DNA of 64,000 nt from an uncultured Gammaproteobacteria bacterium (GTDB lineage: Bacteria; Pseudomonadota; Gammaproteobacteria; JAKDMP01): positions 398,574-462,573 of the forward strand of contig CAWJLN010000009.1 of the NCBI GenBank assembly GCA_963843735.1, written 5' to 3'. A program made the translations under genes and the position numbers. How positions within the stretch are numbered: position 1 is the stretch's first letter; every line of letters starts with the position of its first letter. The notes under the pieces were generated by a model that saw only the letters and a list, made by a program, of their open reading frames with translations, did not search any database and had not been told where the DNA came from. Of the stretch, positions 4,544 through 40,579 are shown piece by piece.

Positions 4544-4693
4544 CTCAGGTGTTCCGGTCGGGAATTTGCCAAGTATAGACGTCTTTGCATGCCTGGAAAC
4601 CGAAACCACGGCGGTGCCGCCTGACGCGGGCCGGTTTATGCATCGTTCGTAGCGGTTAAGCTGGAATTCCGATAGATTCGGTGCGGACGTAAT

Positions 4694-6988: not shown

Positions 6989-7005
6989 GCCGACGTTCGG
7001 CCGGC

Positions 7006-7371: not shown

Positions 7372-7514
7372 GCGATCTCCTGCGTCTGGCGCCTTCGGCA
7401 GCGGGATTATAGTCCCGAATCGGCCGGCTGGCGCCGTTTGTTCCCATTCCCGCAAATGCGGAGTAGAATTCACCTGCCTCGTCCGAACCCGCTCATTCAG
7501 AGGAGTAAGTCGCC

Positions 7515-8075: not shown

Positions 8076-8101
8076 GCGGTCAAACCGGAGGAGGAGGTGC
8101 C

Positions 8102-8479: not shown

Positions 8480-8628
8480 CCTGTGCCCATGGTCCGCGAA
8501 AGCGACGGCCCCGCTGCGACGGGCGGGGGTCTCGGCGGGCGCCGCCTCGTTCCGGGCCGGGCCCGTGCCGCCCGTTGCCGTTATTCGGGCGCATAATATC
8601 GGCATCGCCGTCCCTTGCTGAGTCCGCC

Positions 8629-10959: not shown

Positions 10960-11051
10960 GCGTTCGGCCGTAATGTATGTATATCGCCTAATGCAGAAGC
11001 TCATCGGCGACAATGACATGCAGTCGAATTGCCGTCTGATGGAGCGCCTTA

Positions 11052-11450
11052 TTAAGCTGTTTCTTGTACAAGTCTAACCCTTCGATTCTTCGCTTTGTAT
11101 TTTTCTATACGTTCACGCTTCTCAAGTATGTCAATGCTCCGCATGACCCTTCTCTCAAACACCATTCTGGGATTCCCGCGTGTTAATAGTCCTACTTCTT
11201 TGAGCACGCGAGATGTCAATGAACGTAGCGTACAAGACTGATTCGGGCACCGAGACAGAGCCTGAAGGATCGCATCCTGAATTTCTGTTGCTGATATTTT
11301 TTCTGCCCGACGCCCTGATGAACTGTTGCCATTTTCCTCGCCAACTAATGAGAAGTCCTCGTTACCGTCAATGTCGTCATCATCTTCGGAAACATCGGAA
11401 TGTAGCCCGTCGCCATTCTCTTCTGCCGTATCGTCTTCGTAGGCCACATT
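11052..11450 (-). pseudogene. Frameshift-separated C-terminal segment of the helicase-nuclease (acidic linker plus small helical domain)
   Basis: Overlaps the last codons of the 1520-aa ORF; adding one G in ACC GGG CG at about 11453 joins FPSHTG to ANVAYEDD. Confidence 0.6.
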
Positions 11451-14400
11451 CGCCCGGTATGACTTGGAAAGATCTCTCGTGCTTCTAACGCTTGCCAGAG
11501 TCCAGCAAGCGCATCAACCTTGTTGGCGTAAAAGGCTGATTCCCTAACACGGAAGAACTCCCACTCGCATCGCTCTAGTTGTCTTTGACGCTGCATATCA
11601 GCTTCATAACGGTCAGGTCCATGCCAGTGGTCGCCGTCGCACTCGACTGCCAACCGTGCTGCGCCACCCTCGACTACAAGATCAATGCGCTTACCTGCAA
11701 TTTCATACTGCGGAATGACGTTAAAATCCCGCCTTGCCAGTTCCAGCGCGACATCCACCTCGAACCAACTGTCAAACGGTTTAGGGGGCTTTACAACTTG
11801 GTGATTGTCTTGGAATGCTCTCCGCTCAAGTTCCTCGCGATCAATTCCGGCGATCTGATGTGGCTTTGTGTCCTGGAAGAACTCGAGTAGTCTCCGTCGT
11901 AAATCAAAGGTACTGAGATCGTCACAAGTCACGGAATGGAAAAGGATCATCTGATCACGAGCACGGCTGGCCGCGACATTGAAACGCCGTTCATCGGCCG
12001 CCTTTGTGAATGGGCCAATCCTTTCGTTGGTCGCCGCAACCATCGATAGCAGCATGACGTCGCGTTCGTCCCCCTGGAAGCTGTACGGATTCCCGCAAAT
12101 CAAGCGTCGTCGCTCCATTTCCTCAGCGCCCAACCGCTCTAGCAACTGGCCTTCAATCAAGGTCGCTTGCGCCTCACCCTGAAGAATAACCACACCCATG
12201 GACTTATTCTTATACCGACTGTCACCGCACAGTTCTACGATCTTTTCGACGGCGGCTTTGGCCTCCAGAAGATTGATCGTCCGATTATTCGAACCTTCGC
12301 GATACCCCGCATCTACGAAGATATGTTCGAGGGGGATTAATCGGTCTGGCCCATATTGCCTCAAGGGGATCAGCGGCGTATCGGAATAGCAAAGGTCATT
12401 GCTGAAGCGGATAATCTCCGGCATGCAGCGAAAATGCTCGCGCAAAGTAATTCGTCGAGTCCCATAGCGCAGTTTCCCGTGGTCGAACAGGCTGCTCTCG
12501 ACGTCGAATGATGACTTGAACTGAAAATCGTGCAGATATTCTCCTATTAGACGATGCACTGCATCACGAGGCAACCCCACAGCCTCCGGGCTTATCTGCT
12601 TGTCATCGCCAACGATCAATATTTTCTTAGCAAGATAGAACAATGAAAGCGCCTCTACCCCGCACTGCGAAGCCTCGTCAACGATGATGACGTCGAACAT
12701 TCCCGGCGCAGGGTCCACCGTATCCCAGACCCGATGTAACGGCATTACCCATGCGGGGACCGCCTCACGGCATTGATTAAGATGCTGTTGGGCTTCTCGT
12801 CTGTGGCGCGGCGCGTGCTTTCCTGTGCCTTTTCCAAGCCGCCGCATGGACTGTTGCCAAGCTTCCATGTGACGGCGATGGTCTTCCTCGAGCCTTGAAA
12901 AACAGAACAACCAGGCATGTAGTGAAGCGAGTTTCGCGATCGTGCTACCGATCTCATCCTCAATTTGTTTGGCACGCTTGTTAAGAGCAGGAGCATCCTC
13001 CTGTCTGATGTATTCTTCGATCCAGTATCGAGCCTGTGACCAATGCCAGGCGTCTTCTATATGTAGAAGTCGTTCGTCCCAATATGGTTCGCCACAAGTT
13101 CGTTTCAAGTTATCCGTGAGGATCGGGAGAAGACTCTGTAATTTTGAAAGATATCCATCCACTCTTCGAAGGTGATGACGTTCCTTCTCTAACTCCTGAA
13201 CCTTGCTCGCACCCTGCTCGAATTCATTGATGTTGCGATCACGAATTGCGCCTAGAAATTCGCTCGTAACAGGATGCGCATCGCTGTTGTTGGCGATCGA
13301 CGATACCGGAGCCTCGATGTTTCGCAATTCCTTTCCTGCAAGCCGTTTGACGTAACTGGCCTGTGCAAGTTGACACGAGGCAATCAAGCTTTCAACCTGA
13401 GATTCGTCAGCCCAAGTAGGTTCGCCTATATCAGGACACTGATGCAACACCTTGCGGCAGTTATCAATAAGTTCATCAAGCGACAAGACCATTCCGAGAG
13501 CGTCGCACAATGACTTGAACATGCTCAGTTGCAAAGCGTAAGGTCCGTGCGTCTTATGGGATCGCTGTGCCCAAAATCCCCATGCCTTATCACACGCAAC
13601 TCGAACATGCAAAGCATCACAGAGAACGGAAAAATGTTCGATCGTGGAGCAAGGATGTCCACCAACGCGCACAATCTTGATGGCATGAAGGTGCTCTTTC
13701 ACTGCTTTGGGGCGAAATGGCCCCCAGCCCAACCCCCCGCCATTCTCCATGTGCTGTTTCAATTTGCAGGCATCTTCATAAAGTGTTCTGATATCGATCG
13801 TGGTAGAGAATTCGATACTGGTGTCGTCCGCTATTTGGATCAGCGGTTCGATGGATGCGATCGTGTCTCTCGTGACGCGGGAGAGCTCACGCCACAAGGT
13901 TGAATTGCCTGCCAAGACATCGCGCAGGGCATCACGCATCCACGCGTGCGGTGATGCCAGCAGGTTTTTGCGGGCAACTTGAAAATCTGAAAGTGTCCGA
14001 CGAATCTGCTCAATGATCGGCGTATCGCTCCGCGATAACAGATCGGCGGTACGTTCATCAGCCCCATTCGCCGAGATGTGTTCTTCCTCAATCGCCCTTG
14101 CTTCGCTTTGAACTAGATCGGAGAAATGTTGGGCGGTTGGGAGAGATTCGGGCCAAACAAGTTTCAATTCTCCGCATTTTTCCGATGTGAAGTGGCGAAG
14201 ATGGGCGAGAACGTTACGCAAATCGTTTGCAGATATCGTGCAAGTTCTATCCAGAGGGATAGTATCCGTGAACCACTTATAGGCATCACTGTCACGGTTG
14301 ACGGCTTCCGCGATTCGGGCTGCCGTGCCTTGGTAAGTTCCATTCGCAATGGATTGTGTATGCGTTTCGGATTCCCGGATGTCGCGAAGACGCCGATTGA

Positions 14401-15907
14401 CCTTGGTTTTCTCTTCCCGAAGAGTTCTGAGTCGCTCTTCAAGTTCCGTGAGTTCTTGCTTGGAACGTTCTTCATTCCACTCCGCCTTCTTGCGAAGAAT
14501 GCCGCCAACGCTGGATTCCAGTGAACGGCGTTCCTCAAGACCGCTTCCAAGTAAATTGATGCAGAGCGGGCGCAATTCAGACGGCACCAACCCTTCAAGG
14601 ACCTGGAGCGCACGCGGGGTCTTGGCCGTGATGAGTATTCGCTGTCCCGTGGCGAGCAAATGACAAATTAGATTCGCGATCGTATGAGATTTTCCCGTGC
14701 CCGGCGGCCCCTGTACAAGAACGCCGCTGGCCGACCGAATCTTGTCCACAATGTGACGTTGCTCATCGTTAGATGGCTTCGGGAAGAAGATTTCTCCATC
14801 AAATTGCCGGTCAGGCTCTTGCGGACTATCGTCCGGTTCTCGATCATCTTCCGGTCGAACTTCGGCGAGGTCCGCAAATTCTCCGGGTATGCCTTCACCG
14901 TTTTCGATCCGCTCCTTTATCCGCTTCAGGGTTTCGGTAAGGCCTTTGGCGGAACGCTTACGCAGGATCAAAGCGGGAGCGTGTTCGACTATCGGCTTTT
15001 CTGAGGCACGAACATTTTTCGCTTCCAAGGTGTCGTTATACTCGCCCTGCGAGCTGATTGAATGCACCAGCGCTTGAAGTAGGCCTTCTGTGCAGCTCTT
15101 TTCCCACGGGTTGTCGTCGGCTTGGATCAGCGAAGATTTCGCGGTTTCCTCCGCACGCGGAGGCTGTTCCGCAGGATCCAACATATCGAGTTCAGGTCTG
15201 AGTTTGGCGCCTTCGGCATGAGGGCGAATGGTGAATTTTCCCAGACGGGCTTCAAACTCCAGAATGGCATTAGCGACAATCAAGTGACGCCGAACGCGCT
15301 GTCCGCTAGGCGTCTGCCACGTCAATAGGCCTATACCGAGTACGAGTTCGTATTCCTCGCCAAGCCTAAGCTGTTCTTGATGTATCGCGAAGAGCGCGGA
15401 ATAGATCTTGTGAATTCCTTCCCACCTATTATGTTCTTCCGTCCATGGTAGCCACTTATCTTCGACGTAATGATCCCATGCGCGCCGAACTTCGGGATGT
15501 TCCTCAAGACGATCGGTAATTGATATGACTTCAGGTTGATCTGATCCTTCGCGCCAATCCGGGTTTTGCACTTGACGAGTAATTTGCTGAAGAAGTTCAG
15601 GTAAGTCGTTTTTGTTGCGAAGCGCAGACTGATTCACCCAGTCTTTACATTGAGCGGGAATGATGGGTAATTGCGGCTCTGGGCGTTTTTGCACTTCAAG
15701 CCACTCGTCCGGCTCATGTTCCTCATCGTTTCCCCATGCCTGCGTGAAGCATCCCCACTCGCGTGGAATTTCTGAAACCCAAAGTACATTCTCGTACTCT
15801 GTAACGTTTCGGATCACCTTCGTGCGCAGTAAAGCCAGCCGCGTTAAATAGTCAACGAGCCGAATGGCTTTCTGCACTACAAGGCTATGTGTTTTCCGAT
15901 CGTTCAA
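11345..15907 (-). CDS. Superfamily 1 (Dna2/Nam7/Upf1-like) helicase fused to Vsr/DUF559-like endonuclease
   Basis: QGPPGTGKS (Walker A), IIVDEASQ (Walker B), VGDDKQ, LREHFRC, SFQGDERD, RFNVAASRAR; C-terminal RIDL..LAVECDGDHWH..D..RQRQLE nuclease motif. Confidence 0.88.
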   Translation of the reverse strand: MNDRKTHSLVVQKAIRLVDYLTRLALLRTKVIRNVTEYENVLWVSEIPREWGCFTQAWGNDEEHEPDEWLEVQKRPEPQLPIIPAQCKDWVNQSALRNKNDLPELLQQITRQVQNPDWREGSDQPEVISITDRLEEHPEVRRAWDHYVEDKWLPWTEEHNRWEGIHKIYSALFAIHQEQLRLGEEYELVLGIGLLTWQTPSGQRVRRHLIVANAILEFEARLGKFTIRPHAEGAKLRPELDMLDPAEQPPRAEETAKSSLIQADDNPWEKSCTEGLLQALVHSISSQGEYNDTLEAKNVRASEKPIVEHAPALILRKRSAKGLTETLKRIKERIENGEGIPGEFADLAEVRPEDDREPDDSPQEPDRQFDGEIFFPKPSNDEQRHIVDKIRSASGVLVQGPPGTGKSHTIANLICHLLATGQRILITAKTPRALQVLEGLVPSELRPLCINLLGSGLEERRSLESSVGGILRKKAEWNEERSKQELTELEERLRTLREEKTKVNRRLRDIRESETHTQSIANGTYQGTAARIAEAVNRDSDAYKWFTDTIPLDRTCTISANDLRNVLAHLRHFTSEKCGELKLVWPESLPTAQHFSDLVQSEARAIEEEHISANGADERTADLLSRSDTPIIEQIRRTLSDFQVARKNLLASPHAWMRDALRDVLAGNSTLWRELSRVTRDTIASIEPLIQIADDTSIEFSTTIDIRTLYEDACKLKQHMENGGGLGWGPFRPKAVKEHLHAIKIVRVGGHPCSTIEHFSVLCDALHVRVACDKAWGFWAQRSHKTHGPYALQLSMFKSLCDALGMVLSLDELIDNCRKVLHQCPDIGEPTWADESQVESLIASCQLAQASYVKRLAGKELRNIEAPVSSIANNSDAHPVTSEFLGAIRDRNINEFEQGASKVQELEKERHHLRRVDGYLSKLQSLLPILTDNLKRTCGEPYWDERLLHIEDAWHWSQARYWIEEYIRQEDAPALNKRAKQIEDEIGSTIAKLASLHAWLFCFSRLEEDHRRHMEAWQQSMRRLGKGTGKHAPRHRREAQQHLNQCREAVPAWVMPLHRVWDTVDPAPGMFDVIIVDEASQCGVEALSLFYLAKKILIVGDDKQISPEAVGLPRDAVHRLIGEYLHDFQFKSSFDVESSLFDHGKLRYGTRRITLREHFRCMPEIIRFSNDLCYSDTPLIPLRQYGPDRLIPLEHIFVDAGYREGSNNRTINLLEAKAAVEKIVELCGDSRYKNKSMGVVILQGEAQATLIEGQLLERLGAEEMERRRLICGNPYSFQGDERDVMLLSMVAATNERIGPFTKAADERRFNVAASRARDQMILFHSVTCDDLSTFDLRRRLLEFFQDTKPHQIAGIDREELERRAFQDNHQVVKPPKPFDSWFEVDVALELARRDFNVIPQYEIAGKRIDLVVEGGAARLAVECDGDHWHGPDRYEADMQRQRQLERCEWEFFRVRESAFYANKVDALAGLWQALEAREIFPSHTGRMWPTKTIRQKRMATGYIPMFPKMMTTLTVTRTSH

Positions 15908-26356: not shown

Positions 26357-26623
26357 GTGAAGAAGTCTCGATTCAGCGACAGTCAGATCATGAGCATTTT
26401 GAAGCAGGCCGAGGCGGGTACGCCGGTGGCCGAGCTATGCCGGGAGCACGGCATGAGCGGTGCGCTGTTCTACCGCTGGCGGGCGAAGTACGGGGGGATG
26501 GACGCCTCGCTGATGCGCCGTCTCAGGGAGTTGGAGGAGGAGAACCGGCGGCTGAAGAAGATGTACGCCGAGGAGCGGCTCAAGGCGGAGATTGTGAGCG
26601 AGGCGCTCACAAAAAAATGGTGA
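26357..26623 (+). CDS. IS3 transposase OrfA (HTH)
   Basis: RBS GAGGAGG, GTG start; [30 protein letters not shown]. Confidence 0.9.
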
Positions 26624-27444
26624 GGCCATCTCGGCGCCGCGAGATGGCCAGGCAAGCGGTTAAGAGACGAGGCGTAAGCATTCGGGCGGCGTGTGCGGCC
26701 TTTGCGCTGAGCGAGACCTGCTACCGCTACGAACCCAAGCACTCAGAGGAGAATGGCGAGATCGCCGAGTGGCTGATCCGCTTGACGCACAATCAGAGGA
26801 ACTGGGGCTTCGGGCTGTGCTTTCTGTATCTGAGGAACGTCAAGGGCTACGGCTGGAACCACAAGCGGGTGTATCGGATCTATCGGGCGCTGGAACTGAA
26901 CCTGCGCATCAAGCCGAGAAAGCGCCTGGTGCGCGAGAAGCCCCAAGCCCTGGCCGTACCACAAGCGATCAACGCGGTCTGGTCCATGGACTTCATGCAC
27001 GATCAGCTCGCCGACGGGCGCAGCTTGCGCCTGTTCAACGTCATTGACGACTACAACCGCGAGGGTCTCGGCATCGAGGTCGGCTTCTCGCTGCCTGCCG
27101 CGCGGGTAATCCGTGCTCTGGAGCGGATCATCGAATGGCGAGGTGCACCGCGGGCGATCCGCTGCGACAACGGCCCCGAATACATCAGCGGGGAGTTGCT
27201 CGCCTGGGCGCGCAAGCGCGCCATCCGCATCGACTACATCCAGCCCGGCAAACCGCAGCAAAACGCCTACATCGAGCGCTACAACCGCACCGTGCGCTAC
27301 GACTGGCTCGCCCATTACCTGTTCGATACGATCCACGAGGTGCAGGCGTTCGCTACCCGCTGGCTGTGGACGTATAATCACGAGCGGCCCAATATGGGCC
27401 TCGGTGGCGTGACACCCATGCAGAAGTTGGCCATGGCGGCCTAA
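26620..27444 (+). CDS. IS3 transposase OrfB (DDE), probably expressed by -1 frameshift at A7 (26611-26617)
   Basis: [23 protein letters not shown] integrase-core motifs in the -1 frame. Confidence 0.9.
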
Positions 27445-27600: not shown

Positions 27601-28554
27601 ATGCGCATTGCAAGCGTGGGTCATGCGGTCTTTGCGGCGACCCTTATCTCCCTCGGCATCCTGGGCCTGATCAATGGCGATTTCGCCCCGATATGGCAGG
27701 GAGTGCCCAAGGGCTTGCCGGCACGCGAGGCACTGGCCTATCTCTGCGCCGTCGTTTCCCTCGCCTGCGGTATGGGTTTGTTCTTCCGGCGTACCGCCGT
27801 CATCGCCGCCCGCGTGCTGCTCGCCTATCTCGTGCTTTGGTTGCTGCTGTTGAGATTGCGCGACATCTTCCCTGCGCCCACAGTATTCGGTTCCTGGTAT
27901 GGCTGCGTCGAGACCGCGGTGATCGTGGCGGGCGCCTGGGTCCTGTATGCCTGGTTCGCCGCCGATCGAGACAAGCGGTGGCTCGGTTTCGCCACCGGCG
28001 ACAGGGGCGTGCGCATCGCAAGGATACTCTTCGGCCTGGCCTTGATTTTCTTCGGCGTGAGCCATTTCGTCTATGTCAATTTGACTACACCGCTGGTGCC
28101 TGGCTGGCTGCCGGCGCCTCTGCTTTGGGCTTATTTTTTCGGCTGTACCTACATCGCGGCGGGCGTGGCGGTGCTCATCGGCGTGTATGCACGGCTCGCC
28201 GCCGCGCTCGCGGCGGTGCAGATGGGCATGTTCACGCTGCTGGTGTGGGCGCCCATGGTGGCGGCAGGGCACATCAGCGCCCGCCACTGGATCGAGTTCG
28301 TCGTCTCCTGGACGCTGACGGCCGCCGCCTGGGTGGTCGCGGATTCTTACCGCGCTACGCCCTGGTTCGTCGTGCGCGAGTGCCGGAAAAGGGTAGTGTC
28401 AAGTATTTTGCGCACTTTCGGTTTGGCGGGGTTCCGAATCATGGTTGCTTTCAGGCCGAAGCCTGCTCGGTTTCATCGAGCCGCTGCTGTTTGGCGAGCG
28501 GCTCCATGTTCAGGTAGCGTTTCACGCCCCAGGTCGTTCCCGCGACGTGTCTGA
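27601..28554 (+). CDS. DoxX-like membrane protein; native C-terminus (RSEAQ*, 29790-29792) replaced by read-through into IS256
   Basis: RBS GGAGAAGG, ATG 27601; multi-TM; [15 protein letters not shown] pattern; removing the IS and one TSD copy restores the frame to TGA 29790. Confidence 0.75.
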
Positions 28555-29769
28555 GACGCGCGGCGGCGAGCATCAGCGCCGAGTGCCCGTCGGGGAAGGC
28601 GCCGACGACACGGGTGCGCCGGCGGATCTCGCGCATGAGCCGCTCCAGCGGATTGTTGGTGCGGATGCGCCGCCAGTGGGTCTCGGGAAAAGCGTAGTAG
28701 GTGAGCGTCTCGCCGATGGCGTTCTCGACCTTCTCGGCGGCCTTCGCGAGTCGCATGGCTTTGAGCTTGGCTACCACCTGGCGGGCTTTCTCCTGGGCCG
28801 CTTCACGATCCTCGCTCGCGTGAATGGCCTTGAGCATGGCGGCCACCGCGCGCACCTTGGCGTTGGGCACCACGCTGAACACGTTCCGGTAGAAGTGCAC
28901 CACGCAGCGCTGCCAGCGCGCTTCGGGGTAATGCTCGGCGAGCGCCTCGACCAGACCCAGGCAGGCATCGGAGATGAACAACTCGGTGCCCGTGAGGCCG
29001 CGTGTCTTGAGATGGCCCACGAATGCGCTCCAGCCCGCCTTGTCCTCCTTCGCCCCCTCGGCGATGCCCAGCACCTGGCGGTAGCCCTCGGCATTGACGC
29101 CGATGGCGACCAGCACGCTGACGTTCCTGACTTCCCCGCCCCAACTGCGCTTCAAGACGATGCCGTCCAGGTACACATACGGGAAGGCGCCGGTGATCGG
29201 GCGGTTGCGCCACGCCTCGATGCGCGCATACATCTTCTGGTTCAGCCGGCTGACCGTGCCCGCCGAGACCCGCGTCCCCCACAGCGCCTCGGTGATGTCC
29301 TCGACCCGGCGCACCGAGACCCCGGCCAGATACATCTCCATCAGCGCCTCCTCCACACTCGCCTCGCGCCGCCGATACCGCTCGATGATCGCGGTCTCAA
29401 ACGGCAGTGTCCTGAGCTTGGGCACCTTCAGCTTCACCTCGCCCGCTCGGGTGTGCAGCCCGCGCTCGTAGTGCCCGGCGCGATAATCCCGGCGCCGACC
29501 GCTGCGCTCATAGCGGCTCGCCCCGCACAGCCTGTCGGCCTCCGCATCGAGCAGCCCGTTCAGCGTCTCCTCCACAGTGCCGCGCACAATCCCGTCCAAA
29601 TGCCGCTGTACCTTCGCTTCGTCAATCTCGATCACTTTGCCCAAGGCGGGCGGCGTAGTATCCTGTTCCATGGCGGTGGTCTCCTTCCAGTCAATGATGG
29701 GTTGTAGCTTCATTTAACCAGATCGGGACCGCCGCTCCTCCAAAGTGCGAAAAATACGTTACGTTATCC
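28392..29769 (-). mobile_element. IS256 family element, copy 1 (1378 bp)
   Basis: Ends defined by comparing the two copies; imperfect IRs sharing GTATTTTnCGCACTTT; flanking direct repeat GGAAAAG (28385-28391, 29770-29776; could be read as 8 bp CGGAAAAG). Confidence 0.93.
28451..29671 (-). CDS. IS256 family transposase
   Basis: [45 protein letters not shown]; RBS AAGGAG before ATG 29671. Confidence 0.95.
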
Positions 29770-29892: not shown

Positions 29893-32583
29893 TCAGGGTA
29901 TTATCGTAATCGTAATCGGTTGGGCGACCTTGCCTAAATCGTCAAACCATGAGGCTGTAGAGACGGGTGGGGCGAAGGATACCGTGCCCGAAAGCCCGAG
30001 ATAATCGCCGTAAGAATAATTGTAGATGCTGTCATACGAGCCCAGGATGGCAGCATAGACGTTCCAGACCGGGGTGGCATGAAGACCCGACAAGCAGGAG
30101 GGGTTTTTGTATGCGTCGTGGTGCGCGATGACCGCTCGTGCGGTATGTCGGTTCATAAGCGGATGGCCATCCTTTTTCTCTATGTGCGGCGGAGTCTTGT
30201 AATGCGTATAGTCGGGGCACAATGGCAACAGTCCGGCGGCCTGATAAGACGCCAGGGCTTCGCCTATCGCGCTCCGATAGCTGCCGTTCGTTCCGTAAAG
30301 CCCCGCTTGTTTGCTGTCGTCTGTGTTGCATATGGCGGAACCCGCCGCCTGCAGGAAATCACAGGGTTTGAATTTTGCAATTACCAGCGGCTTGGAAGAA
30401 GTGACGGTATTGCTCCCGACGGCGCCCTCGCTTGTTGGGCAATTTCCTGAAAATCGAGTGAATACCAACTTGTCCTTGTGAGCGCCTTTGGTTTCTACCA
30501 CTCCCTTCACAATACAATCCGGGAGGGCTTTGCCCGCCAAATCATCGGCGAAGGCTGTGTTGATATAGATGGCATGAGCCTTATTTTCCAGGTACTTCCA
30601 CAGCAAATTTATGTATTGATTGTAGTAGGTTGACGGAAAATATTTATTTTTCTTCGCGTCAATCCTTCCCATCGGATCCAGATAGTAGGAAACGTAGTTG
30701 TAGCTTAAAACTACATTCTCGGCGGTAATCGGTGCCAGGATATTCGTGTACTTGCTGGTCTTGCACTCGCTGGACGATAATTTGAACCCCTTCCTGACGT
30801 AATTCTGTAATCCGTCCTGCCTCCCGCAATCGTACGCCCAGACCGTGCTGTCGTGCTGGTCGTCAAACTCTTTCGCTATCCCTTTGAAAATCGGCTGGGA
30901 GTCATTAAGCTTGAAGTACGTGTTCAAGATGCCGTGCGACGCGCTCTGGGTGAGCAAGTTTAGCGGCGCGACTGTTCCCATGGTATTGAATCTGGCCATC
31001 ACATCCATGGCATTGACGTAACTCTGATCGACAAATAGTTGTTCATTTTGATCGGAGGGGTTTGGGTTTTCTATTCCGTATGACAATTCCATGCGCAGCC
31101 ACCTGGGTGGTATCGGTGACTCGGTATGCGATGGGAGATTGCCGCCTGTCGTGGAAAATTCCCCCCGGCCCAGATATATGACGCCGCTTTGCCCATGAGG
31201 CATATAAAAAAGATTATTGGTTTCGGAAAGTGCGAACTGATCCTGGTTGAAGTCCGAGTGCTCTGAATCCGTACTTATTGAGCCTACGTAATGCGAATTC
31301 TCGGACTGGAACTTGACCATGTATTGATTGCCGCCCGACCAATTTTCCATAATGGCCGCGGCATAGAAGGCTGAACCGCTCGCCGGAGGGACTATCCTCA
31401 CCGCGATGTGATCCTTCTCGTAAGGGACGAAAGTGACGCCTGTCTTGTAGTTGACCAGGGTCCCCGCGGTGTTCGATATCTTGACCGCTACCGAAACCGT
31501 ACTCACAGGGGGGGCTCCTGAAGCCGGGGCTAAAGAGCCGGACACGGCATACAGCGGCCCGCCGGTTGTCGCGTTAAACGGGGCTAACTTAGTCGTTGCC
31601 GGGGGCGTAAGGGTGTAAGTACCATCTGCTTCGGGCGCCAAAACGATGCCAGCCTTGACGGTTGTCAGTGCGGTTGCCGACACGGAAGTGATTGTCAGCT
31701 TCTTACCCGAAGTATTCTTGAAAAGAAATACCGGGCGGTAATTGAACGGGGTCCCATCAACGCCCGTCCCGGTGTAAAGGGTCTCGGCTATGTTCTGAGC
31801 CAGATACAAGGGCAGGTGATCGTCGGTAGCCGTTTCCGTACTGCCCAGGCTCAGGTTCTCCACGGACACAACCAGAAGGTAGGGAGACAAGAGCGAGGAG
31901 CCCGCCGCTTTGGAAAGTTCCAGGCCGTAAGCGCTGGGTGCTGCGTTGGCGGGAACCGTCACCGATACCTCGCAGGACGGGTAATTCTCATCGATGGTAC
32001 ACGCGCCGTTACCGCCTACCGCCCAGCCGTCGGGTGCCGTCACTGTGTACAGACCGGTGGCTACTTGCTGCGATGTGCTGTGGGCGCTGAACGACACATT
32101 GAACGTCTCGCCGGGGTCCGCCGCCTCGATTGGGGCACCGGATGTGCTCGTCAACGTTGCATAAACCCGTCCGCCATTTTCGACATAGACCGGGACCGGG
32201 CTGGGCAGATTCGGCTTGCCGTTAACGTCAACCTGGAGTTCATGCTCGTTGCTGCTGCCCAGGTTGGTTTGAGGCGCCTGGCAGCTGAAATCGCCGCCGG
32301 CGCCGCGAATGGTGAACGTTTGCGCGGGTCCGCAGTCGATCTGGGGGGTTACCGTGCCCACGTCAACCAGTTGTATTTTGACTGTGCCCCATGAATTGGT
32401 GGAGGCAGAGACCGCAACGCTGATCGTAGACGCGGACCCGGCATAAACCGAGTCGGGAATATCGGCATGTGCGGTAATGTTCGTAGCCGTAGGCTTTACC
32501 GATCCGCCTCCGCAAGCGGAGAGCAGAAAGGCACAGCCTGAGACTAAAGCAAAGATTGATAAGTTCTTGATGTGTTTGTACAT
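29893..32583 (-). CDS. Large lipoprotein: beta-rich N-terminal domains plus C-terminal GH64 (beta-1,3-glucanase)-like domain
   Basis: Lipobox LSAC-GGG; SGVIYLG / RMELSY / LFVDQSYVN / NVYAAILG..YNYSYGD resemble GH64 motifs; AT-richer than flanks. Confidence 0.6.
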   Translation of the reverse strand: MYKHIKNLSIFALVSGCAFLLSACGGGSVKPTATNITAHADIPDSVYAGSASTISVAVSASTNSWGTVKIQLVDVGTVTPQIDCGPAQTFTIRGAGGDFSCQAPQTNLGSSNEHELQVDVNGKPNLPSPVPVYVENGGRVYATLTSTSGAPIEAADPGETFNVSFSAHSTSQQVATGLYTVTAPDGWAVGGNGACTIDENYPSCEVSVTVPANAAPSAYGLELSKAAGSSLLSPYLLVVSVENLSLGSTETATDDHLPLYLAQNIAETLYTGTGVDGTPFNYRPVFLFKNTSGKKLTITSVSATALTTVKAGIVLAPEADGTYTLTPPATTKLAPFNATTGGPLYAVSGSLAPASGAPPVSTVSVAVKISNTAGTLVNYKTGVTFVPYEKDHIAVRIVPPASGSAFYAAAIMENWSGGNQYMVKFQSENSHYVGSISTDSEHSDFNQDQFALSETNNLFYMPHGQSGVIYLGRGEFSTTGGNLPSHTESPIPPRWLRMELSYGIENPNPSDQNEQLFVDQSYVNAMDVMARFNTMGTVAPLNLLTQSASHGILNTYFKLNDSQPIFKGIAKEFDDQHDSTVWAYDCGRQDGLQNYVRKGFKLSSSECKTSKYTNILAPITAENVVLSYNYVSYYLDPMGRIDAKKNKYFPSTYYNQYINLLWKYLENKAHAIYINTAFADDLAGKALPDCIVKGVVETKGAHKDKLVFTRFSGNCPTSEGAVGSNTVTSSKPLVIAKFKPCDFLQAAGSAICNTDDSKQAGLYGTNGSYRSAIGEALASYQAAGLLPLCPDYTHYKTPPHIEKKDGHPLMNRHTARAVIAHHDAYKNPSCLSGLHATPVWNVYAAILGSYDSIYNYSYGDYLGLSGTVSFAPPVSTASWFDDLGKVAQPITITIIP

Positions 32584-33648: not shown

Positions 33649-34202
33649 TAAACCCCCCGGCTTTAGCCGGCGGACAGGTCGGCTAGGTTATGCTGAGGAG
33701 ATGGAGGATTATAAGCGCGGGAGCCACACGGTGTGGGACTGCAAGTACCACCTGGTGTGGACGACGAAGTACCGATATCAGGTACTGGGCGGGGAAGTAG
33801 GAGAGCGCTGCCGGGAGTTGCTGCGCGAGATAGCGCGGGCGAAGGAGATGCGCATCTATGCGGGGGCGATCAATCGGGATCATGTGCACATGCTGATAGG
33901 GATACCGCCGTATCTATCGGTATCGCGGGCGGTGCAGTACATGAAGGGCAAGAGTTCGCACAAGCTTCTGACGGAGTTTGCGCGGCTGAGGAAGCGGTAT
34001 TGGGGACAGCACCTGTGGGCGCGAGGCTACTGGGTATGCACGAGCGGGAACGTGACCGACGAGGTGTGGCACCGTTACATCGAGGAGCAGAAGCCGCCGG
34101 AGCCTGACGATGACTTTCAGGTTGTGTAGTCGGCCGCATGGCCGACCGATCCGGCTTTCAGCCGTAATCCGAAGCCACCGGCTTTAGCCGGTGGAGTATT
34201 CA
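33649..34202 (+). mobile_element. IS200/IS605 family element (tnpA only); ends approximate
   Basis: Subterminal hairpins CCGGCTTTAGCCGG at about 33657 and CCACCGGCTTTAGCCGGTGG at about 34175; no terminal IRs. Confidence 0.85.
33701..34129 (+). CDS. tnpA: IS200 family HUH (Y1) transposase
   Basis: YHLVWTTKYR, DHVHML (HUH), KGKSS, LWARGY, YIEEQ. Confidence 0.95.
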   Translation: MEDYKRGSHTVWDCKYHLVWTTKYRYQVLGGEVGERCRELLREIARAKEMRIYAGAINRDHVHMLIGIPPYLSVSRAVQYMKGKSSHKLLTEFARLRKRYWGQHLWARGYWVCTSGNVTDEVWHRYIEEQKPPEPDDDFQVV

Positions 34203-35500: not shown

Positions 35501-36878
35501 GGTAGTGTCAAGTATTTTGCGCACTTTCGGTTTGGCGGGGTTCCGAATCATGGTTGCTTTCAGGCCGAAGCCTGCTCGGTTTCATCGAGCCGCTGCTGTT
35601 TGGCGAGCGGCTCCATGTTCAGGTAGCGTTTCACGCCCCAGGTCGTTCCCGCGACGTGTCTGAGACGCGCGGCGGCGAGCATCAGCGCCGAGTGCCCGTC
35701 GGGGAAGGCGCCGACGACACGGGTGCGCCGGCGGATCTCGCGCATGAGCCGCTCCAGCGGATTGTTGGTGCGGATGCGCCGCCAGTGGGTCTCGGGAAAA
35801 GCGTAGTAGGTGAGCGTCTCGCCGATGGCGTTCTCGACCTTCTCGGCGGCCTTCGCGAGTCGCATGGCTTTGAGCTTGGCTACCACCTGGCGGGCTTTCT
35901 CCTGGGCCGCTTCACGATCCTCGCTCGCGTGAATGGCCTTGAGCATGGCGGCCACCGCGCGCACCTTGGCGTTGGGCACCACGCTGAACACGTTCCGGTA
36001 GAAGTGCACCACGCAGCGCTGCCAGCGCGCTTCGGGGTAATGCTCGGCGAGCGCCTCGACCAGACCCAGGCAGGCATCGGAGATGAACAACTCGGTGCCC
36101 GTGAGGCCGCGTGTCTTGAGATGGCCCACGAATGCGCTCCAGCCCGCCTTGTCCTCCTTCGCCCCCTCGGCGATGCCCAGCACCTGGCGGTAGCCCTCGG
36201 CATTGACGCCGATGGCGACCAGCACGCTGACGTTCCTGACTTCCCCGCCCCAACTGCGCTTCAAGACGATGCCGTCCAGGTACACATACGGGAAGGCGCC
36301 GGTGATCGGGCGGTTGCGCCACGCCTCGATGCGCGCATACATCTTCTGGTTCAGCCGGCTGACCGTGCCCGCCGAGACCCGCGTCCCCCACAGCGCCTCG
36401 GTGATGTCCTCGACCCGGCGCACCGAGACCCCGGCCAGATACATCTCCATCAGCGCCTCCTCCACACTCGCCTCGCGCCGCCGATACCGCTCGATGATCG
36501 CGGTCTCAAACGGCAGTGTCCTGAGCTTGGGCACCTTCAGCTTCACCTCGCCCGCTCGGGTGTGCAGCCCGCGCTCGTAGTGCCCGGCGCGATAATCCCG
36601 GCGCCGACCGCTGCGCTCATAGCGGCTCGCCCCGCACAGCCTGTCGGCCTCCGCATCGAGCAGCCCGTTCAGCGTCTCCTCCACAGTGCCGCGCACAATC
36701 CCGTCCAAATGCCGCTGTACCTTCGCTTCGTCAATCTCGATCACTTTGCCCAAGGCGGGCGGCGTAGTATCCTGTTCCATGGCGGTGGTCTCCTTCCAGT
36801 CAATGATGGGTTGTAGCTTCATTTAACCAGATCGGGACCGCCGCTCCTCCAAAGTGCGAAAAATACGTTACGTTATCC
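35501..36878 (-). mobile_element. IS256 family element, copy 2 (1378 bp), no flanking direct repeat
   Basis: Same length and same translated ORF as copy 1, 7109 bp away, same orientation; flanks GGGTGGTC / AGACGTGC do not match. Confidence 0.93.
35560..36780 (-). CDS. IS256 family transposase
   Basis: Protein identical to that of copy 1. Confidence 0.95.
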   Translation of the reverse strand: MEQDTTPPALGKVIEIDEAKVQRHLDGIVRGTVEETLNGLLDAEADRLCGASRYERSGRRRDYRAGHYERGLHTRAGEVKLKVPKLRTLPFETAIIERYRRREASVEEALMEMYLAGVSVRRVEDITEALWGTRVSAGTVSRLNQKMYARIEAWRNRPITGAFPYVYLDGIVLKRSWGGEVRNVSVLVAIGVNAEGYRQVLGIAEGAKEDKAGWSAFVGHLKTRGLTGTELFISDACLGLVEALAEHYPEARWQRCVVHFYRNVFSVVPNAKVRAVAAMLKAIHASEDREAAQEKARQVVAKLKAMRLAKAAEKVENAIGETLTYYAFPETHWRRIRTNNPLERLMREIRRRTRVVGAFPDGHSALMLAAARLRHVAGTTWGVKRYLNMEPLAKQQRLDETEQASA

Positions 36879-36940: not shown

Positions 36941-37813
36941 TTACCGTAATGCTAGTTCTTTCTCAATAATAGAGCTGGCGATGCTGAATTGGTATTCGAT
37001 GCCTCTTTCGTCGGAAATATCAATTTCTTTAAAGAATTTAAATAATATTGGCTCTATTACGGCATTTCTATAGCTATATAGTTCGTATTTATTTAGCTCT
37101 TCAAAGGCATATACATTTGCGCACTTAGCTAAAAATTCAGCTGCAGAAGCGGTAATTTTTTTTGCATCTTTCAAAGATAAATGTCTAAATACCCGAACAG
37201 CCATTCCCAAGTTGTTGGGATTTTCTTTGAGCACTATGTCTAGTTTGCGGGCGCTAATTTCATCGAAGTAGTTTGTTCTATGAATAAACGCACCTGTTCT
37301 CCAATTCATCAAAATCGCATCCCAATTAAGTACAGTTGTGTCTATTAGAGATGCTACTCCTCGATATTTGACTAAATTTTGCTTTATGGCCCAGGTTTCT
37401 TCAGCATGCCATATATCGACAGGTATGTTCCCTATTGTTAATCTATAACCACCAAATTTATTTTGTTTTGCATTCAGGTATTGAAGATAAGAAACAAAGT
37501 TAGACCAATCTCCTTCAACAACTAGGTCTACATCTGAATTAAAGCCACTTCTTCCAAAAATAGCTAAATCACGAAGTACGCCTCCAAATAGGTATACATC
37601 GCCGTCGGGCACAGAGGACGAAATATAATTTAAGAAAGCGGTTATGTTTTCCCTGGGGTTAGGGTATATTTTTACGAAATCGAATAAATACGCTTGGTCC
37701 AGGTAAGGTTGCTTCGAAATTTTTGTTTGCTTTTCCGAGGGTCCAAGCAACCGAGAAACTCTCTTTCTGAGGTTTGTGGCTGAATCAACAGGATTGGGTT
37801 TATGAAAAAGCAT
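36941..37813 (-). CDS. Stand-alone class II (CCA-adding/poly(A) polymerase head-like) nucleotidyltransferase
   Basis: VYLFGGVLRD..FG...SDVDLVV signature with DxD; third carboxylate in PVDIW; very AT-rich; start overlaps the dGTPase stop by 14 bp. Confidence 0.75.
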   Translation of the reverse strand: MLFHKPNPVDSATNLRKRVSRLLGPSEKQTKISKQPYLDQAYLFDFVKIYPNPRENITAFLNYISSSVPDGDVYLFGGVLRDLAIFGRSGFNSDVDLVVEGDWSNFVSYLQYLNAKQNKFGGYRLTIGNIPVDIWHAEETWAIKQNLVKYRGVASLIDTTVLNWDAILMNWRTGAFIHRTNYFDEISARKLDIVLKENPNNLGMAVRVFRHLSLKDAKKITASAAEFLAKCANVYAFEELNKYELYSYRNAVIEPILFKFFKEIDISDERGIEYQFSIASSIIEKELALR

Positions 37814-38393
37814 TTTCTAACAACTTCAATTCATCATGTTTTTTAATTAGATAAGACTCAGTCATTCCTGAGATGGCGTCGCATAATAACTGACATTTGT
37901 CATAAAAGATCTTTTCTGAATCTTGATAGACCCTCCTATAATTTTCAGATATTCCTCCAAAAGCATATCGTTCAAAAGGGCTTCCAGGGTCTCCTTCGGA
38001 CGAGATCGCCTTCCATAACATGGACATTAAGCTTTTGATGTAATTGTTTCCTTCAAGTTCCAATTTCAAGACTTCTTTATGCTTAAATCCATGCTCGCGA
38101 TCAAAATCTTCAACAATTTCGCACAATTTCGCACAATTGGATTTCTCAATTAAGGTAAATCCTTTCTCTATAGAGCCATCTATCATTTTGGGGGAGTTTT
38201 TTATAAAAACGTCGGTAGCGGATTTTACCATCTTCGATATTGCTTTTACTCTAAACATCTGCATGGATAGATCATTTAGTTCTTTTGAGCTGAGGGGTTC
38301 CTTTTTAAACTTTCTGTTTTGTTTCACAGATTCTTTTATTACCTCATTTACAACCTCGTCTTTTCGGCCATGCGTTTTTAGAAAGTCCATTAA

Positions 38394-39576
38394 GGAAACT
38401 CTGATTAATTCCTCTGATTTGAGATAATACGCTTTGTTATCCATTCACGTCCCCCGGAGATTGAACCGATGCGCCAGGAGAGTTTTGCCGAAGCCGGCTT
38501 TGAGAAGTATCGCAAAGTGACGCGGCGCGAGCGGTTTTTGGCCGAGATGGAGCGAGTGATTCCATGGGCGGAGCTGGCGGCGGTGATTGAGCCGTACTAT
38601 CCGAAGCCCGAAGGGGCGGGCCGCCGCCCCATAGGTATCGAGCGGATGTTGCGCATCCACTTTCTGCAGCACTGGTTCAACCTCTCGGACCCGGCGGTAG
38701 AAGAGGCACTGTATGAGTCGCGCTCCATGCGCACCTTTGCGGGCATAGACCTCGGGCGCGAGCCGGCGCCCGACGAGACCACGGTGCTCAAGTTTCGCCA
38801 TCTGCTCGAGGCGCACGATTTGGGCGCGAGCCTGTTTGCGCTCATCAACGAGTACCTGGAAGCACAGGGTCTCACGGTGGGCGCCGGCACGATCGTGGAT
38901 GCGACGATTATCAACGCCCCGAGTTCGACCAAGAACCGGGAGAGGAAGCGCGACCCCGAGATGCACCAGACCAGGAAGGGCAATCAGTGGTACTTCGGCA
39001 TGAAGGCCCACATCGGGGTGGACAGCCGCACGAAGCTGATCCACTCGGTGGCGGCGACGGCGGCGAACGTGCATGACAGTCAGCTCATGAGCGATCTGCT
39101 GCACGGCGAGGAGACCCGGGTGTGGGGCGATTCGGCCTACGCGGGCCAGCGCGAGCAGATACGCGAACACGCGCCGCGAGCGAGCGACTTCACGAACCAG
39201 AAGGGGCGGCGCAACCATCCGCTCGACGAGGCCGAGCGCGATAAGAATCGCACCAAGTCCAAGGTGCGGGCGCGGGTCGAGCATCCGTTCCTCGTGGTCA
39301 AGTGCATTTTTGGCTTTCGCAAGGTCTGCTACCGCGGGCTGGATAAGAACGCCAATCGGCTCTTTATGGTCTGTGGCTTGACCAATTTGTATCTCGCGCG
39401 CCGACAATTGTTGGGCGTCACGTAGGCGAGGTGCGCCCGCGGTGCGCCGCGGAGACCCTAAAATGGCATCCACAGCGCCAAAAGTGACACAATCCATCGG
39501 TTTTCGGAGAGGCTTTGAGTCATGCAACAGAACCGCTCCCATTTTTTACTGTCAGCGTGAATTAATCAGAGTTTCC
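38394..39576 (+). mobile_element. IS5 family element (1183 bp)
   Basis: Perfect 18-bp IRs GGAAACTCTGATTAATTC; TTAA duplication at 38390-38393 and 39577-39580. Confidence 0.96.
38469..39425 (+). CDS. IS5 family transposase
   Basis: LSDPAVEEALY, PDETT, IVDATII, FGMKAHIG, GDSAY, RARVEHPF. Confidence 0.96.
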   Translation: MRQESFAEAGFEKYRKVTRRERFLAEMERVIPWAELAAVIEPYYPKPEGAGRRPIGIERMLRIHFLQHWFNLSDPAVEEALYESRSMRTFAGIDLGREPAPDETTVLKFRHLLEAHDLGASLFALINEYLEAQGLTVGAGTIVDATIINAPSSTKNRERKRDPEMHQTRKGNQWYFGMKAHIGVDSRTKLIHSVAATAANVHDSQLMSDLLHGEETRVWGDSAYAGQREQIREHAPRASDFTNQKGRRNHPLDEAERDKNRTKSKVRARVEHPFLVVKCIFGFRKVCYRGLDKNANRLFMVCGLTNLYLARRQLLGVT

Positions 39577-40579
39577 TTAAGTCATAGAATGATGCATATC
39601 CTTTTTTAACCGTATCTTCGGCGTCAATAATGGAATAAGCAATATCGTCGCATGCTTCCATGACATACGCTAGCGGATGCCGAATTCCAGCCTTTAATCC
39701 GGTTTTATCCCAAATTTCTTTAACAATGCATGCTTCGCTATTAAAGATTCCATATTTTTTAAATCCACCCTTGTCTTGAGAGCCATATATGCTTGGATAT
39801 TTTATAAGAGCAGCAAGGGTGGCTACAGTTAAATTTAATCCAAATTTGTCGTTCAGAATCTGTAGTCGAGTGAGAAGACGGAATGTTTGTGCATTCCCAT
39901 CAAATTCAAGAAAATCTACAGCAACTTTATCTTCGAAAGGGTGTTCTTTAAACCATTGTTGGATCGCAATTTCGCCTTGGTGTCCGAATGGAGGATTCCC
40001 GAGATCATGGGCCAAGCCTACGGCAGCCAACAAAGACGGAATATTTCGCTTTACCTCTAGTTTTTCAGAATCCTCGCCAAATACTTTCTCGGCATGATCA
40101 AAGGCTATGCGCACTCCAATACTACGAGCCAAATTGCTCACCTCATGGGAATGTGTAAGACGGGTTCTGACAGAATCATTTTGTTCCATCGGGAATACTT
40201 GAGTCTTGTCAGCTAATCTGCGGGTAGGGGCGGCAAATAGGATTCTGTCGTAGTCTCTTTCAAGCTCCTTTCTTCCGATACCCGTCCTCATGGATTCGTC
40301 GGCGCCATACAACGTTTTGCGTCTAATGGGATTTAACAAGTTGTCCCAACTGAGCATGGATATTCCTAAGATCGTTGATGATGCCTTTTTAAGGGTATCT
40401 CATTAGAAAACGGGGAGTAAGGGGTCAGAGTCCCTATTCAGCGTGGCCAACTTTCCAATAGTTTGCATCACTTTAAGTATAGCCGCGGTTTGTCGGTTTT
40501 GAGCTCGAAGCGGTCGAGGATTAGCAAGTTGGGGCGTAAAAGCCCTAAAATTGGCGTTTTACGGGCGATTGTGGAAGCC

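What the first reader, a model, noticed from the sequence alone, without database searches (positions are those of the whole stretch)
36941..40357. Candidate undescribed nucleotide-based defence system: dGTPase translationally coupled to a class II nucleotidyltransferase
Seen in sequence: two strongly AT-rich genes on one strand overlapping by 14 bp, inserted divergently upstream of mnmG; an HD-family dGTPase (456 aa when repaired) followed by a 290-aa GGxxRD/DxD nucleotidyltransferase. Established: stand-alone dGTPases protect against phage by depleting dGTP, HD dNTPases are often allosterically controlled by nucleotides, and NTases make immune signals in CBASS-type systems. Inference: the NTase may synthesise a nucleotide activator or inhibitor of the dGTPase, or act as a second effector that tails RNA or consumes dNTPs. 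I know of no named system with this gene pair.
Basis: partly seen in the sequence, partly recalled or inferred. Interest (0 to 1): 0.85.

Follow-up and report, generated by a model that had tools for sequence, protein, structure and literature searches.

The report
IS-broken Clover anti-phage system (CloA/CloB)
The dGTPase–nucleotidyltransferase gene pair is real and strictly conserved, but it belongs to the Clover anti-phage system described in 2025-26; here it is a horizontally acquired copy whose dGTPase gene has been knocked out by a recently active insertion sequence.

Summary
An AT-rich (39% GC) two-gene operon sits on the minus strand next to mnmG. It encodes a 456-aa HD dGTPase split by a 1183-bp IS5-family element, overlapping by 14 nt a 290-aa GGxxRD/DxD nucleotidyltransferase. 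The pair is not undescribed. It is Clover (CloA dGTPase plus CloB NTase; Yamaguchi et al., bioRxiv 2025, Nature 2026).

- **CloA:** with the IS joined out, it matches the Salmonella CloA cryo-EM chains at E=4.6e-154 (54% identity). It keeps all 6 catalytic, all 10 p3diT-pocket and all 9 dTTP-pocket residues, including those that separate Clover CloA from CloB-less dGTPases.
- **CloB:** it aligns with the experimentally validated E. coli H5 CloB (30% identity, E=2e-36). Its D94/D96 fall on the catalytic D71/D73.
- **Linkage:** in 38 of 39 genomes with a CloB homologue, CloA lies directly upstream. Nothing else is conserved around the pair.

In this genome the system is dead. cloA is interrupted at codon 260/261 by an IS with five identical genomic copies, while cloB is intact. 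This is a new, decayed member of a known system, of low interest.

The parts
39581..40357 (-). cloA 5' part: codons 1-259 plus the first two bases of codon 260, whose third base is the T at 39580 in the TSD copy. It encodes the HD domain with H69, H117/D118, H126/E129 and D237. The ORF as it stands runs on to 39566, where it stops inside the IS end.
39577..39580 (.). TTAA target-site duplication, copy on the cloA 5' side
38394..39576 (+). IS5-family insertion sequence, 1183 bp, with 18-bp perfect terminal inverted repeats. Its DDE transposase ORF is 38469-39425 (+). It is one of five identical copies in the genome.
38390..38393 (.). TTAA target-site duplication, copy on the cloA 3' side
37800..38393 (-). 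cloA 3' part: codons 261-456 of the joined frame plus the stop codon, beginning at 38390; bases 38391-38393 are the rest of this TSD copy. It encodes the C-terminal helical bundle with Q304/R307 (p3diT site) and S408/N410/T437/Y440 (dTTP site). The ORF listed as 37800-38444 starts 17 codons inside the IS end.
36941..37813 (-). cloB: intact 290-aa Pol-beta-superfamily NTase with GGVLRD at 77, D94/D96 and D133. Its start overlaps the cloA stop by 14 nt.
35501..36878 (-). IS256-family element (1378 bp) lying 62 bp beyond the cloB stop codon. It is the only one of four genomic copies without a target duplication, which marks a rearrangement or deletion at the island's edge.
40358..40579 (.). Divergent intergenic region between cloA and the likely true start of mnmG. 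The GC content rises from about 40% to about 80% here. The cloA promoter is presumed to lie in it but was not identified.

Best explanation
The locus is a horizontally acquired Clover anti-phage operon, cloA-cloB, inactivated by an insertion sequence.

**Intact form (inferred from the characterised Salmonella and E. coli H5 systems):** CloA is an oligomeric HD-domain dGTPase and is inactive on its own. A rise in dTTP caused by phage nucleotide-metabolism enzymes fills an allosteric pocket at the CloA dimer interface and switches on dGTP hydrolysis. That starves phage DNA replication. CloB is a small NTase with a class-II-like head domain. It joins two dTTP into p3diT (5'-triphosphothymidyl-3',5'-thymidine). 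p3diT binds an adjacent, mutually exclusive pocket on CloA, raises the dTTP threshold and prevents self-intoxication. The overlapping stop and start codons keep the two genes translationally coupled.

**In this genome:** an active IS5-family element landed in a TTAA at codon 260/261 of cloA. This separates the HD domain from the C-terminal bundle that supplies half of both allosteric pockets and the oligomer contacts, so the effector is dead. cloB is intact but is now cut off from the operon promoter.

**Shown here:** homology, residue conservation, gene linkage and the anatomy of the IS. **Inferred:** the enzymology, the identity of the signal and the defence phenotype for this particular copy.
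For: - **CloA homology:** with the IS joined out, the best PDB matches are 9p8s/t/u/v. These are 8-chain 'dNTP triphosphohydrolase' entries (E=4.6e-154, 517 bits), against 178 bits for the next dGTPase. They are Salmonella CloA: 37 of 38 residues named in the paper fall on the right letters once 2 is subtracted from the chain numbering. Identity is 54% to SeCloA and 53% to E. coli H5 CloA.
- **Functional residues:** all 6 catalytic or metal residues, all 10 p3diT contacts and all 9 dTTP contacts are identical in the window protein. They are near-invariant in 33 CloB-linked homologues. Eleven dGTPases from genomes without CloB differ at T25, N75, Q311, K256, S418, N420 and A444, and the window has the Clover residue at each.
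- **CloB homology:** the window protein against the validated E. coli H5 CloB gives 30% identity over 211 aa, E=2e-36, with D94/D96 aligned on D71/D73, the paper's inactivating mutant. Twenty-eight columns are invariant across 41 CloB sequences, including GG, RD, DxD and D133.
- **Linkage:** 38 of 39 loci have cloA directly upstream, usually with a 14-nt overlap. No third gene is conserved.
- **Foreign origin:** the remnant is 38.7% GC against 62.4% for the genome. None of 60 relatives has CloB, and none of 8 same-family genomes has any dGTPase.
- **IS activity:** there are five 100%-identical copies, each with a 4-bp duplication.
- **Mechanism:** taken from PMC12265719.
Against: - No experiment exists on this clade. 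CloB is only 30% identical to the validated enzyme, and no CloB structure is in the PDB, so p3diT synthesis here is inferred.
- Two CloA positions differ from SeCloA. H263, which makes the pi-stack at the tetramer interface, is Tyr; Q427, a switch residue, is Asp. The oligomeric state could therefore differ.
- The window-clade CloB carries a roughly 25-residue low-confidence insert (residues 27-50) that E. coli CloB lacks.
- Only 2 of 10 sampled neighbours in related loci hit defence models, so my own evidence for defence-island association is thin.
Confidence: 0.92

Rival explanations
1. A distinct dGTPase-NTase system that shares ancestry with Clover but uses a different nucleotide signal or different logic. 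For example, the NTase product might activate rather than inhibit, or might not be a thymidine dinucleotide.
For: CloB is only 30% identical to E. coli H5 CloB and has a clade-specific N-terminal insert. H263 is Tyr and Q427 is Asp in CloA.
Against: The base-reading contacts for both thymines of p3diT (Q311, D37, N75), the 3'-OH and sugar readers (R314, F41) and the thymine-specific dTTP contacts (D61, T449, Y452) are all identical. These residues separate CloB-linked dGTPases from CloB-less ones. The paper reports p3diT from a distantly related Xanthomonas CloB as well.
Confidence: 0.05
2. A housekeeping pair: a dNTP-pool dGTPase plus an RNA 3'-end NTase related to CCA-adding or poly(A) enzymes, with no role in defence.
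For: The best fold and profile matches of the NTase are class II CCA-adding and A-adding enzymes. The best NCBIfam hit of the dGTPase is a generic dGTPase model.
Against: The distribution is sporadic: 39 species out of about 185,000 in the scan, and none of 60 relatives. The composition is foreign. The NTase is 290 aa, lacks the EDxxRRD motif and has no tRNA-binding body or tail domains. Homologues give more than 10,000-fold phage protection. The host tolerates its loss.
Confidence: 0.01
3. The interruption is an assembly artefact or a minority allele, and the organism really carries an intact, working Clover system.
For: The IS has five identical copies, which can mislead assemblers. The genome is a 13-contig, 76%-complete assembly. 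Both cloA halves and cloB show no other lesion.
Against: The insertion has clean 18-bp inverted repeats and a TTAA duplication, exactly like the four other copies. The contig runs through this IS and two IS256 copies, which argues for long-range support.
Confidence: 0.05

Closest known systems
Clover anti-phage system (CloA/CloB) of Salmonella enterica SA20044414 and E. coli H5 (Yamaguchi et al., bioRxiv 2025, PMC12265719; Nature 652:978, 2026)
   Same: The gene order and overlapping genes are the same. CloA is 53-54% identical, with every catalytic, p3diT-pocket and dTTP-pocket residue kept. CloB is homologous (E=2e-36), with the catalytic DxD aligned. In both cases the pair is a self-contained, AT-rich mobile module.
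   Different: CloB is only 30% identical and has an extra N-terminal linker of about 25 aa. CloA has Tyr in place of H263 and Asp in place of Q427. The host is a 62% GC, roughly 2-3 Mb proteobacterium. cloA is disrupted by an IS, so this copy cannot work.
Stand-alone anti-phage dGTPase (Tal et al. 2022; Shewanella putrefaciens SpdGTPase, PDB 9p8w; NCBIfam NF041026; PADLOC 'dGTPase')
   Same: It has the same HD dGTPase fold and catalytic residues. It defends by depleting dGTP. The PADLOC dGTPase model hits both cloA halves.
   Different: It is a single gene, constitutively active in vitro and hexameric, with no partner NTase. It scores 99 bits against the window protein, compared with 517 bits for CloA. 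The NF041026 score of 167 bits is far below its 400-bit cut-off.
Hailong (HalB oligodeoxyadenylate) and Panoptes/MISS (2'3'-c-di-AMP): defence systems with inhibitory nucleotide signals
   Same: The logic is the same. A constitutively made nucleotide holds a toxic effector in check, and loss of the synthase is toxic (as cited in PMC12265719).
   Different: The effectors are different (membrane or ion-channel proteins, not a dNTPase), the signals are different and the NTases are unrelated. No sequence relationship was found here.
Class II CCA-adding, A-adding and poly(A) polymerase enzymes (e.g. PDB 3h37, 1vfg, 4wbz)
   Same: The head-domain motifs GGxxRD and DxD are shared. These enzymes are the best fold matches to the CloB model (Foldseek probability 1.0, E about 1e-7). 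The chemistry is the same: template-independent addition of one nucleotide to a 3'-OH.
   Different: TM-scores are only 0.36-0.47 and identity 11-18%. CloB has no EDxxRRD motif, no tRNA-binding body or tail, and is about 290 aa rather than about 400. Its 'primer' is a free dTTP, not an RNA end.

Membership tests
Clover (CloA/CloB) | Two co-oriented adjacent genes, with the dNTPase first and the NTase second | tested here: met
   a 14-nt overlap. The same order is seen in 38 of 39 related loci, in E. coli H5 and on the Phaeobacter plasmid.
Clover (CloA/CloB) | CloA is homologous to characterised CloA and closer to it than to other dGTPases | tested here: met
   517 bits to PDB 9p8t (SeCloA) against at most 178 bits for other dGTPases. 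Identity is 53-54%, compared with 23-31% to dGTPases of CloB-less relatives.
Clover (CloA/CloB) | HD motif, metal ligands and HE catalytic dyad (H69, H117, D118, D242, H126, E129) | tested here: met
   all six are identical.
Clover (CloA/CloB) | p3diT inhibitor pocket (T25, R29, R34, D37, R38, F41, N75, N181, Q311, R314) | tested here: met
   10 of 10 identical. T25, N75 and Q311 distinguish CloB-linked dGTPases from CloB-less ones, with F41 partly discriminating.
Clover (CloA/CloB) | dTTP activator pocket (R47, D61, Q172, K256, S418, N420, A444, T449, Y452) | tested here: met
   9 of 9 identical. K256, S418, N420 and A444 are Clover-specific.
Clover (CloA/CloB) | CloB is homologous to validated CloB, with the [DE]h[DE]...h[DE]h active site | tested here: met
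   E=2e-36 to E. coli H5 CloB, with D94/D96 aligned on D71/D73. D133 and 27 other columns are invariant across 41 sequences.
Clover (CloA/CloB) | CloA forms an octameric 'four-leaf' assembly | not tested
   No multimer prediction was run. The interface residue H263 is Tyr here, and in 28 of 33 relatives.
Clover (CloA/CloB) | CloB synthesises p3diT; CloA is activated by dTTP and inhibited by p3diT; the system protects against phage | not testable with these tools
   These are biochemical and phage assays. [quoted passage not shown]
Clover, functional state of this copy | Both genes intact | tested here: not met
   cloA is split at codon 260/261 by a 1183-bp IS. cloB is intact. This bears on function in this genome, not on family membership by descent.
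Stand-alone anti-phage dGTPase (NF041026 / SpdGTPase type) | Scores above the curated cut-off of the anti-phage dGTPase model, and is a single-gene system | tested here: not met
   167 + 26 bits against a cut-off of 400; 99 bits to 9p8w. A partner NTase is always present.
Class II CCA-adding / poly(A) polymerase family (Pfam PolyA_pol) | PolyA_pol head domain, EDxxRRD nucleotide-selection motif, and tRNA-binding body and tail domains | tested here: not met
   no PolyA_pol hit, and only a marginal NTP_transf_2 hit; no EDxxRRD; the similarity is limited to the head and neck (profile E=3e-4; TM 0.36-0.47).
CBASS CD-NTase | Matches CD-NTase models, with cGAS-like fold neighbours | tested here: not met
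   no PADLOC hit; no cGAS or CD-NTase among the listed 50 best of 295 PDB matches.

The most novel reading that the evidence does not exclude
IS-broken Clover loci such as this one might not be simple wrecks. CloB could still be expressed, for instance read out from the IS end through the chimeric 214-codon ORF that keeps the 14-nt coupling, and so keep making p3diT. That would leave an 'orphan antidote' that protects against incoming Clover-bearing elements, or that lets the system be re-armed safely by precise IS excision. Lesions would then fall preferentially in cloA. Three natural cloA-only lesions were seen here and no cloB-only lesion.
Probability: 0.06. Interest if true: 0.45.

Novelty: new member of a known kind. 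Interest (0 to 1): 0.2.

Why it matters
This result mainly corrects the record. The pair flagged as a possible new defence system is Clover, whose mechanism is already solved structurally and biochemically.

What this locus adds is modest:
- It extends Clover to a divergent, well-populated clade: 458 CloB homologues in metagenomes and 39 species, mostly gamma- and betaproteobacteria. In that clade every ligand-contacting residue of CloA is conserved although CloB has drifted to 30% identity. That supports p3diT/dTTP control being ancestral to the system.
- It gives a natural example of the expected direction of decay, with the toxic effector lost and its inhibitor-synthase retained.
- It shows that PADLOC v2 would label such loci only as 'dGTPase' and miss the partner gene.

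Tried and rejected
- **PADLOC and NCBIfam on the NTase:** no hits. Those libraries predate Clover, so the absence does not indicate novelty.
- **Sequence search for a solved CloB structure:** none found; only weak matches to CCA-adding enzymes.
- **Promoter and terminator scan of the operon and IS ends:** fewer promoter-like sites than in shuffled sequence, and nothing usable. Whether cloA and cloB are expressed stays open.
- **Insertion site from relatives:** the region upstream of mnmG in three same-family genomes shares none of the window's neighbouring genes. The empty site could not be reconstructed, and the island boundary rests on GC content and on the IS256 copy that lacks a target duplication.
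- **Defence-island context in related loci:** 2 of 10 sampled neighbours hit defence models (HerA-like, PDC-S41), plus one RtcR-like regulator. This is too thin to count as independent support.
- **Asymmetry of natural lesions (cloA versus cloB):** three cloA-only cases and no cloB-only case. Given the gene lengths this would happen by chance about 23% of the time, so it is not significant.
- **Closed or unavailable resources:** The Nature version of the Clover paper is not held, and the supplement listing CloB homologues is not held as text, so I could not check whether this clade is among the published >650 systems.
Full report
**1. What is in the sequence.** Between about 36.88 and 40.45 kb the window drops from roughly 65% to 35-43% GC. 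On the minus strand lie three ORFs and one insertion:
- a 263-codon ORF (39566-40357);
- an element with a plus-strand DDE transposase (38469-39425);
- a 214-codon ORF (37800-38444);
- a 290-codon ORF (36941-37813).

The first and third ORFs are the two halves of one dGTPase. PADLOC dGTPase gives 6.5e-61 and 2.3e-09, TIGR01353 gives 2.6e-73 and 1.7e-14, and Pfam finds HD and HD_assoc.

The intervening element is a 1183-bp IS5-family IS (38394-39576). It has perfect 18-bp terminal inverted repeats and a TTAA target duplication. The 22-bp 'perfect inverted repeat' reported is the 18-bp repeat plus the palindromic TTAA. Joining the flanks gives an uninterrupted 456-aa frame.

The dGTPase stop overlaps the start of the 290-aa gene by 14 nt. 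That protein has GGVLRD at residue 77, D94-V-D96 and D133.

**2. The pair is a conserved module.**
- The 290-aa protein has 458 homologues at E<=1e-3, almost all unnamed or 'hypothetical'.
- A scan of one genome per prokaryotic species found 39 loci, mostly gamma- and betaproteobacteria. They include Pseudomonas, Stutzerimonas, Lysobacter, Steroidobacter, Novimethylophilus and Catenovulum.
- In 38 of them a dGTPase 55-75% identical to the window's lies immediately upstream on the same strand. The 39th locus is cut at the contig end.
- The stop/start overlap is conserved, with 14 nt the commonest value.
- All-against-all clustering of flanking ORFs shows that only these two genes recur, and the flanks vary from locus to locus.
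- None of 60 relatives of the window's genome has the NTase. None of 8 same-family genomes has any dGTPase.

The pair is thus a foreign, self-contained two-gene module.

**3. [quoted passage not shown] It has since appeared in Nature 652:978, 2026, according to PMC13434031. The paper defines exactly this dNTPase-NTase operon as the Clover system, CloA/CloB.

I tested membership rather than assuming it.

*(a) CloA homology.* With the IS joined out, the dGTPase matches PDB 9p8s/t/u/v, which are 8-chain 'dNTP triphosphohydrolase' entries, at E=4.6e-154 (517 bits). The best non-Clover dGTPase scores 178 bits, and the stand-alone anti-phage SpdGTPase 9p8w scores 99 bits. These entries are Salmonella CloA: after subtracting 2 from the chain numbering, 37 of 38 residues named in the paper fall on the stated amino acid. 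The preprint's data statement prints the codes as 8P9S-8P9V, evidently a transposition.

*(b) CloA residues.* The window protein is 54% identical to SeCloA and 53% to E. coli H5 CloA. It keeps:
- all six catalytic or metal residues;
- all ten p3diT contacts (T25, R29, R34, D37, R38, F41, N75, N181, Q311, R314);
- all nine dTTP contacts (R47, D61, Q172, K256, S418, N420, A444, T449, Y452).

These positions are near-invariant in 33 CloB-linked homologues.

*(c) Control.* Eleven dGTPases from CloB-less relatives share the family-wide arginines. They differ at T25, N75, Q311, K256, S418, N420 and A444, and the window protein has the Clover state at each.

*(d) CloB homology.* A DNA search of complete E. 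coli genomes with the cloA 5' part hit strain H5, the strain used in the paper. Its annotated operon (L040:4905-7104, 2200 bp, matching the paper's cloned interval) gives the validated CloB. The window NTase aligns with it at 30% identity over 211 aa, E=2e-36. D94/D96 align on D71/D73, the catalytic pair mutated in the paper. Across 41 CloB sequences, including E. coli H5 and a Phaeobacter plasmid copy, 28 columns are invariant, among them GG, RD, DxD and D133.

**4. What CloB looks like.** No CloB structure is in the PDB. An AlphaFold2 model built from a 16-sequence alignment is confident (mean pLDDT 83, pTM 0.80), with a disordered linker at residues 27-50. Its best PDB neighbours are all class II CCA-adding, A-adding or poly(A) enzymes: Foldseek E about 1e-7, probability 1.0, TM 0.36-0.47 and 11-18% identity. 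It lacks their EDxxRRD motif and their tRNA-binding domains. The similarity also makes chemical sense: CloB adds one dTMP to the 3'-OH of a dTTP 'primer'. That last point is my inference.

**5. How it works and its state here.** According to the paper:
- CloA is inactive on its own and is specifically activated by dTTP (EC50 about 15 uM). dTTP rises when T5-like phages remodel the nucleotide pool.
- Activated CloA hydrolyses only dGTP.
- CloB makes p3diT, which binds an adjacent, mutually exclusive site (IC50 about 7.6 uM) and raises the activation threshold.
- CloA without active CloB is highly toxic.

Because every ligand-contacting residue is conserved, I infer the same mechanism for the window's system in its intact form.

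In this genome the system is dead. The IS sits at codon 260/261 (…SFYDL|MDFL…), two residues after the position equivalent to SeCloA H263. It separates the HD domain from the C-terminal bundle that carries Q304/R307 and S408/N410/T437/Y440.

The event looks recent:
- The IS has five 100%-identical genomic copies, each with a 4-bp duplication: TTAA three times, CTAG and GTAG.
- Neither cloA half, nor cloB, carries any other lesion.

At the other edge, an IS256-family copy (35501-36878) lies 62 bp beyond the cloB stop codon. It is the only one of four copies without a target duplication, which indicates a rearrangement that trimmed the island. The AT-rich remnant is only 2389 bp, essentially just the operon.

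**6. Limits.**
- No biochemical data exist for this clade, so the signal and the phenotype are inferred.
- H263 is Tyr and Q427 is Asp, which might alter assembly or switching.
- I could not confirm that this clade is among the paper's >650 systems, because the supplementary table is not held.

**7. Verdict.** The locus is a new, IS-inactivated member of the known Clover system. Interest is low.

Noticed in passing
window 9883-15907 (-): A second low-GC island (about 46-53% GC). It holds a DUF3644 protein matching PADLOC candidate PDC-S19 (6e-123). Next to it is a 1520-aa SF1-helicase plus MTES_1575 nuclease protein matching PDC-S37, MkoA/C and Hhe models (5e-55). This is a likely separate defence module.
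   Followed up: partly
window 28392-29769 and 35501-36878: Two identical 1378-bp IS256-family copies in the same orientation bracket about 5.7 kb, which contains an 896-aa ORF, OsmC, an IS200 tnpA and a RIO kinase. The first copy has a GGAAAAG duplication and the second has none, which suggests IS-mediated rearrangement or a composite structure.
   Followed up: partly
window 29893-32583 (-): An 896-aa ORF in a lower-GC stretch (about 51-55%) with no Pfam or PADLOC hit.
   Followed up: no
L045 (E. coli CLSC36, NZ_CP041300.1) and 107 other E. coli genomes: A second E. coli Clover lineage lies between flhB and cheZ in 108 of 5426 complete genomes. Its CloA is 50% and its CloB 33% identical to the window's. 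In CLSC36, cloA carries a strain-specific in-frame TAG at '…GFASY*', two codons upstream of the position where the IS splits the window's cloA, and is annotated as two CDS.
   Followed up: partly
L069 (E. coli E17, NZ_CM143886.1): At the same flhB-adjacent Clover locus, an IS1 element sits after 616 bp of cloA. The rest of cloA, cloB and the neighbouring che/mot region are gone, so this is an IS-mediated deletion.
   Followed up: partly
L026 (OY282378.1, uncultured gammaproteobacterium) 4605-5972: cloA has one in-frame stop codon while cloB downstream is intact. The sister genome L027 has an intact cloA.
   Followed up: partly
L041 (Phaeobacter piscinae conjugative plasmid pP14_b) 2547-4777: A Clover-like dgt plus 259-aa 'hypothetical' pair (CloB 34% identical to the window's) sits directly after a TcmP/Gp37-Gp68 gene pair. 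Weaker CloB-like hits also occur on large Bacillus thuringiensis/cereus plasmids.
   Followed up: partly
L040 (E. coli H5) 338-8930: The validated E. coli H5 Clover operon lies in an integrase-bearing island at tRNA-Sec. It sits beside genes for a QueC-like 7-cyano-7-deazaguanine synthase, a PfkB kinase, an 8-oxoguanine glycosylase and a Dam-like methylase.
   Followed up: no
PMC12265719, data availability statement: The preprint lists the CloA structures as 8P9S-8P9V. The PDB copy holds them as 9P8S-9P8V, alongside 9P8W for SpdGTPase.
   Followed up: yes
window 26437-27444 (+) and 33701-34129 (+): Further mobile-element genes are present: an IS3-type rve integrase and an IS200-like Y1 transposase. 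The 26-40 kb stretch is unusually rich in IS elements.
   Followed up: no
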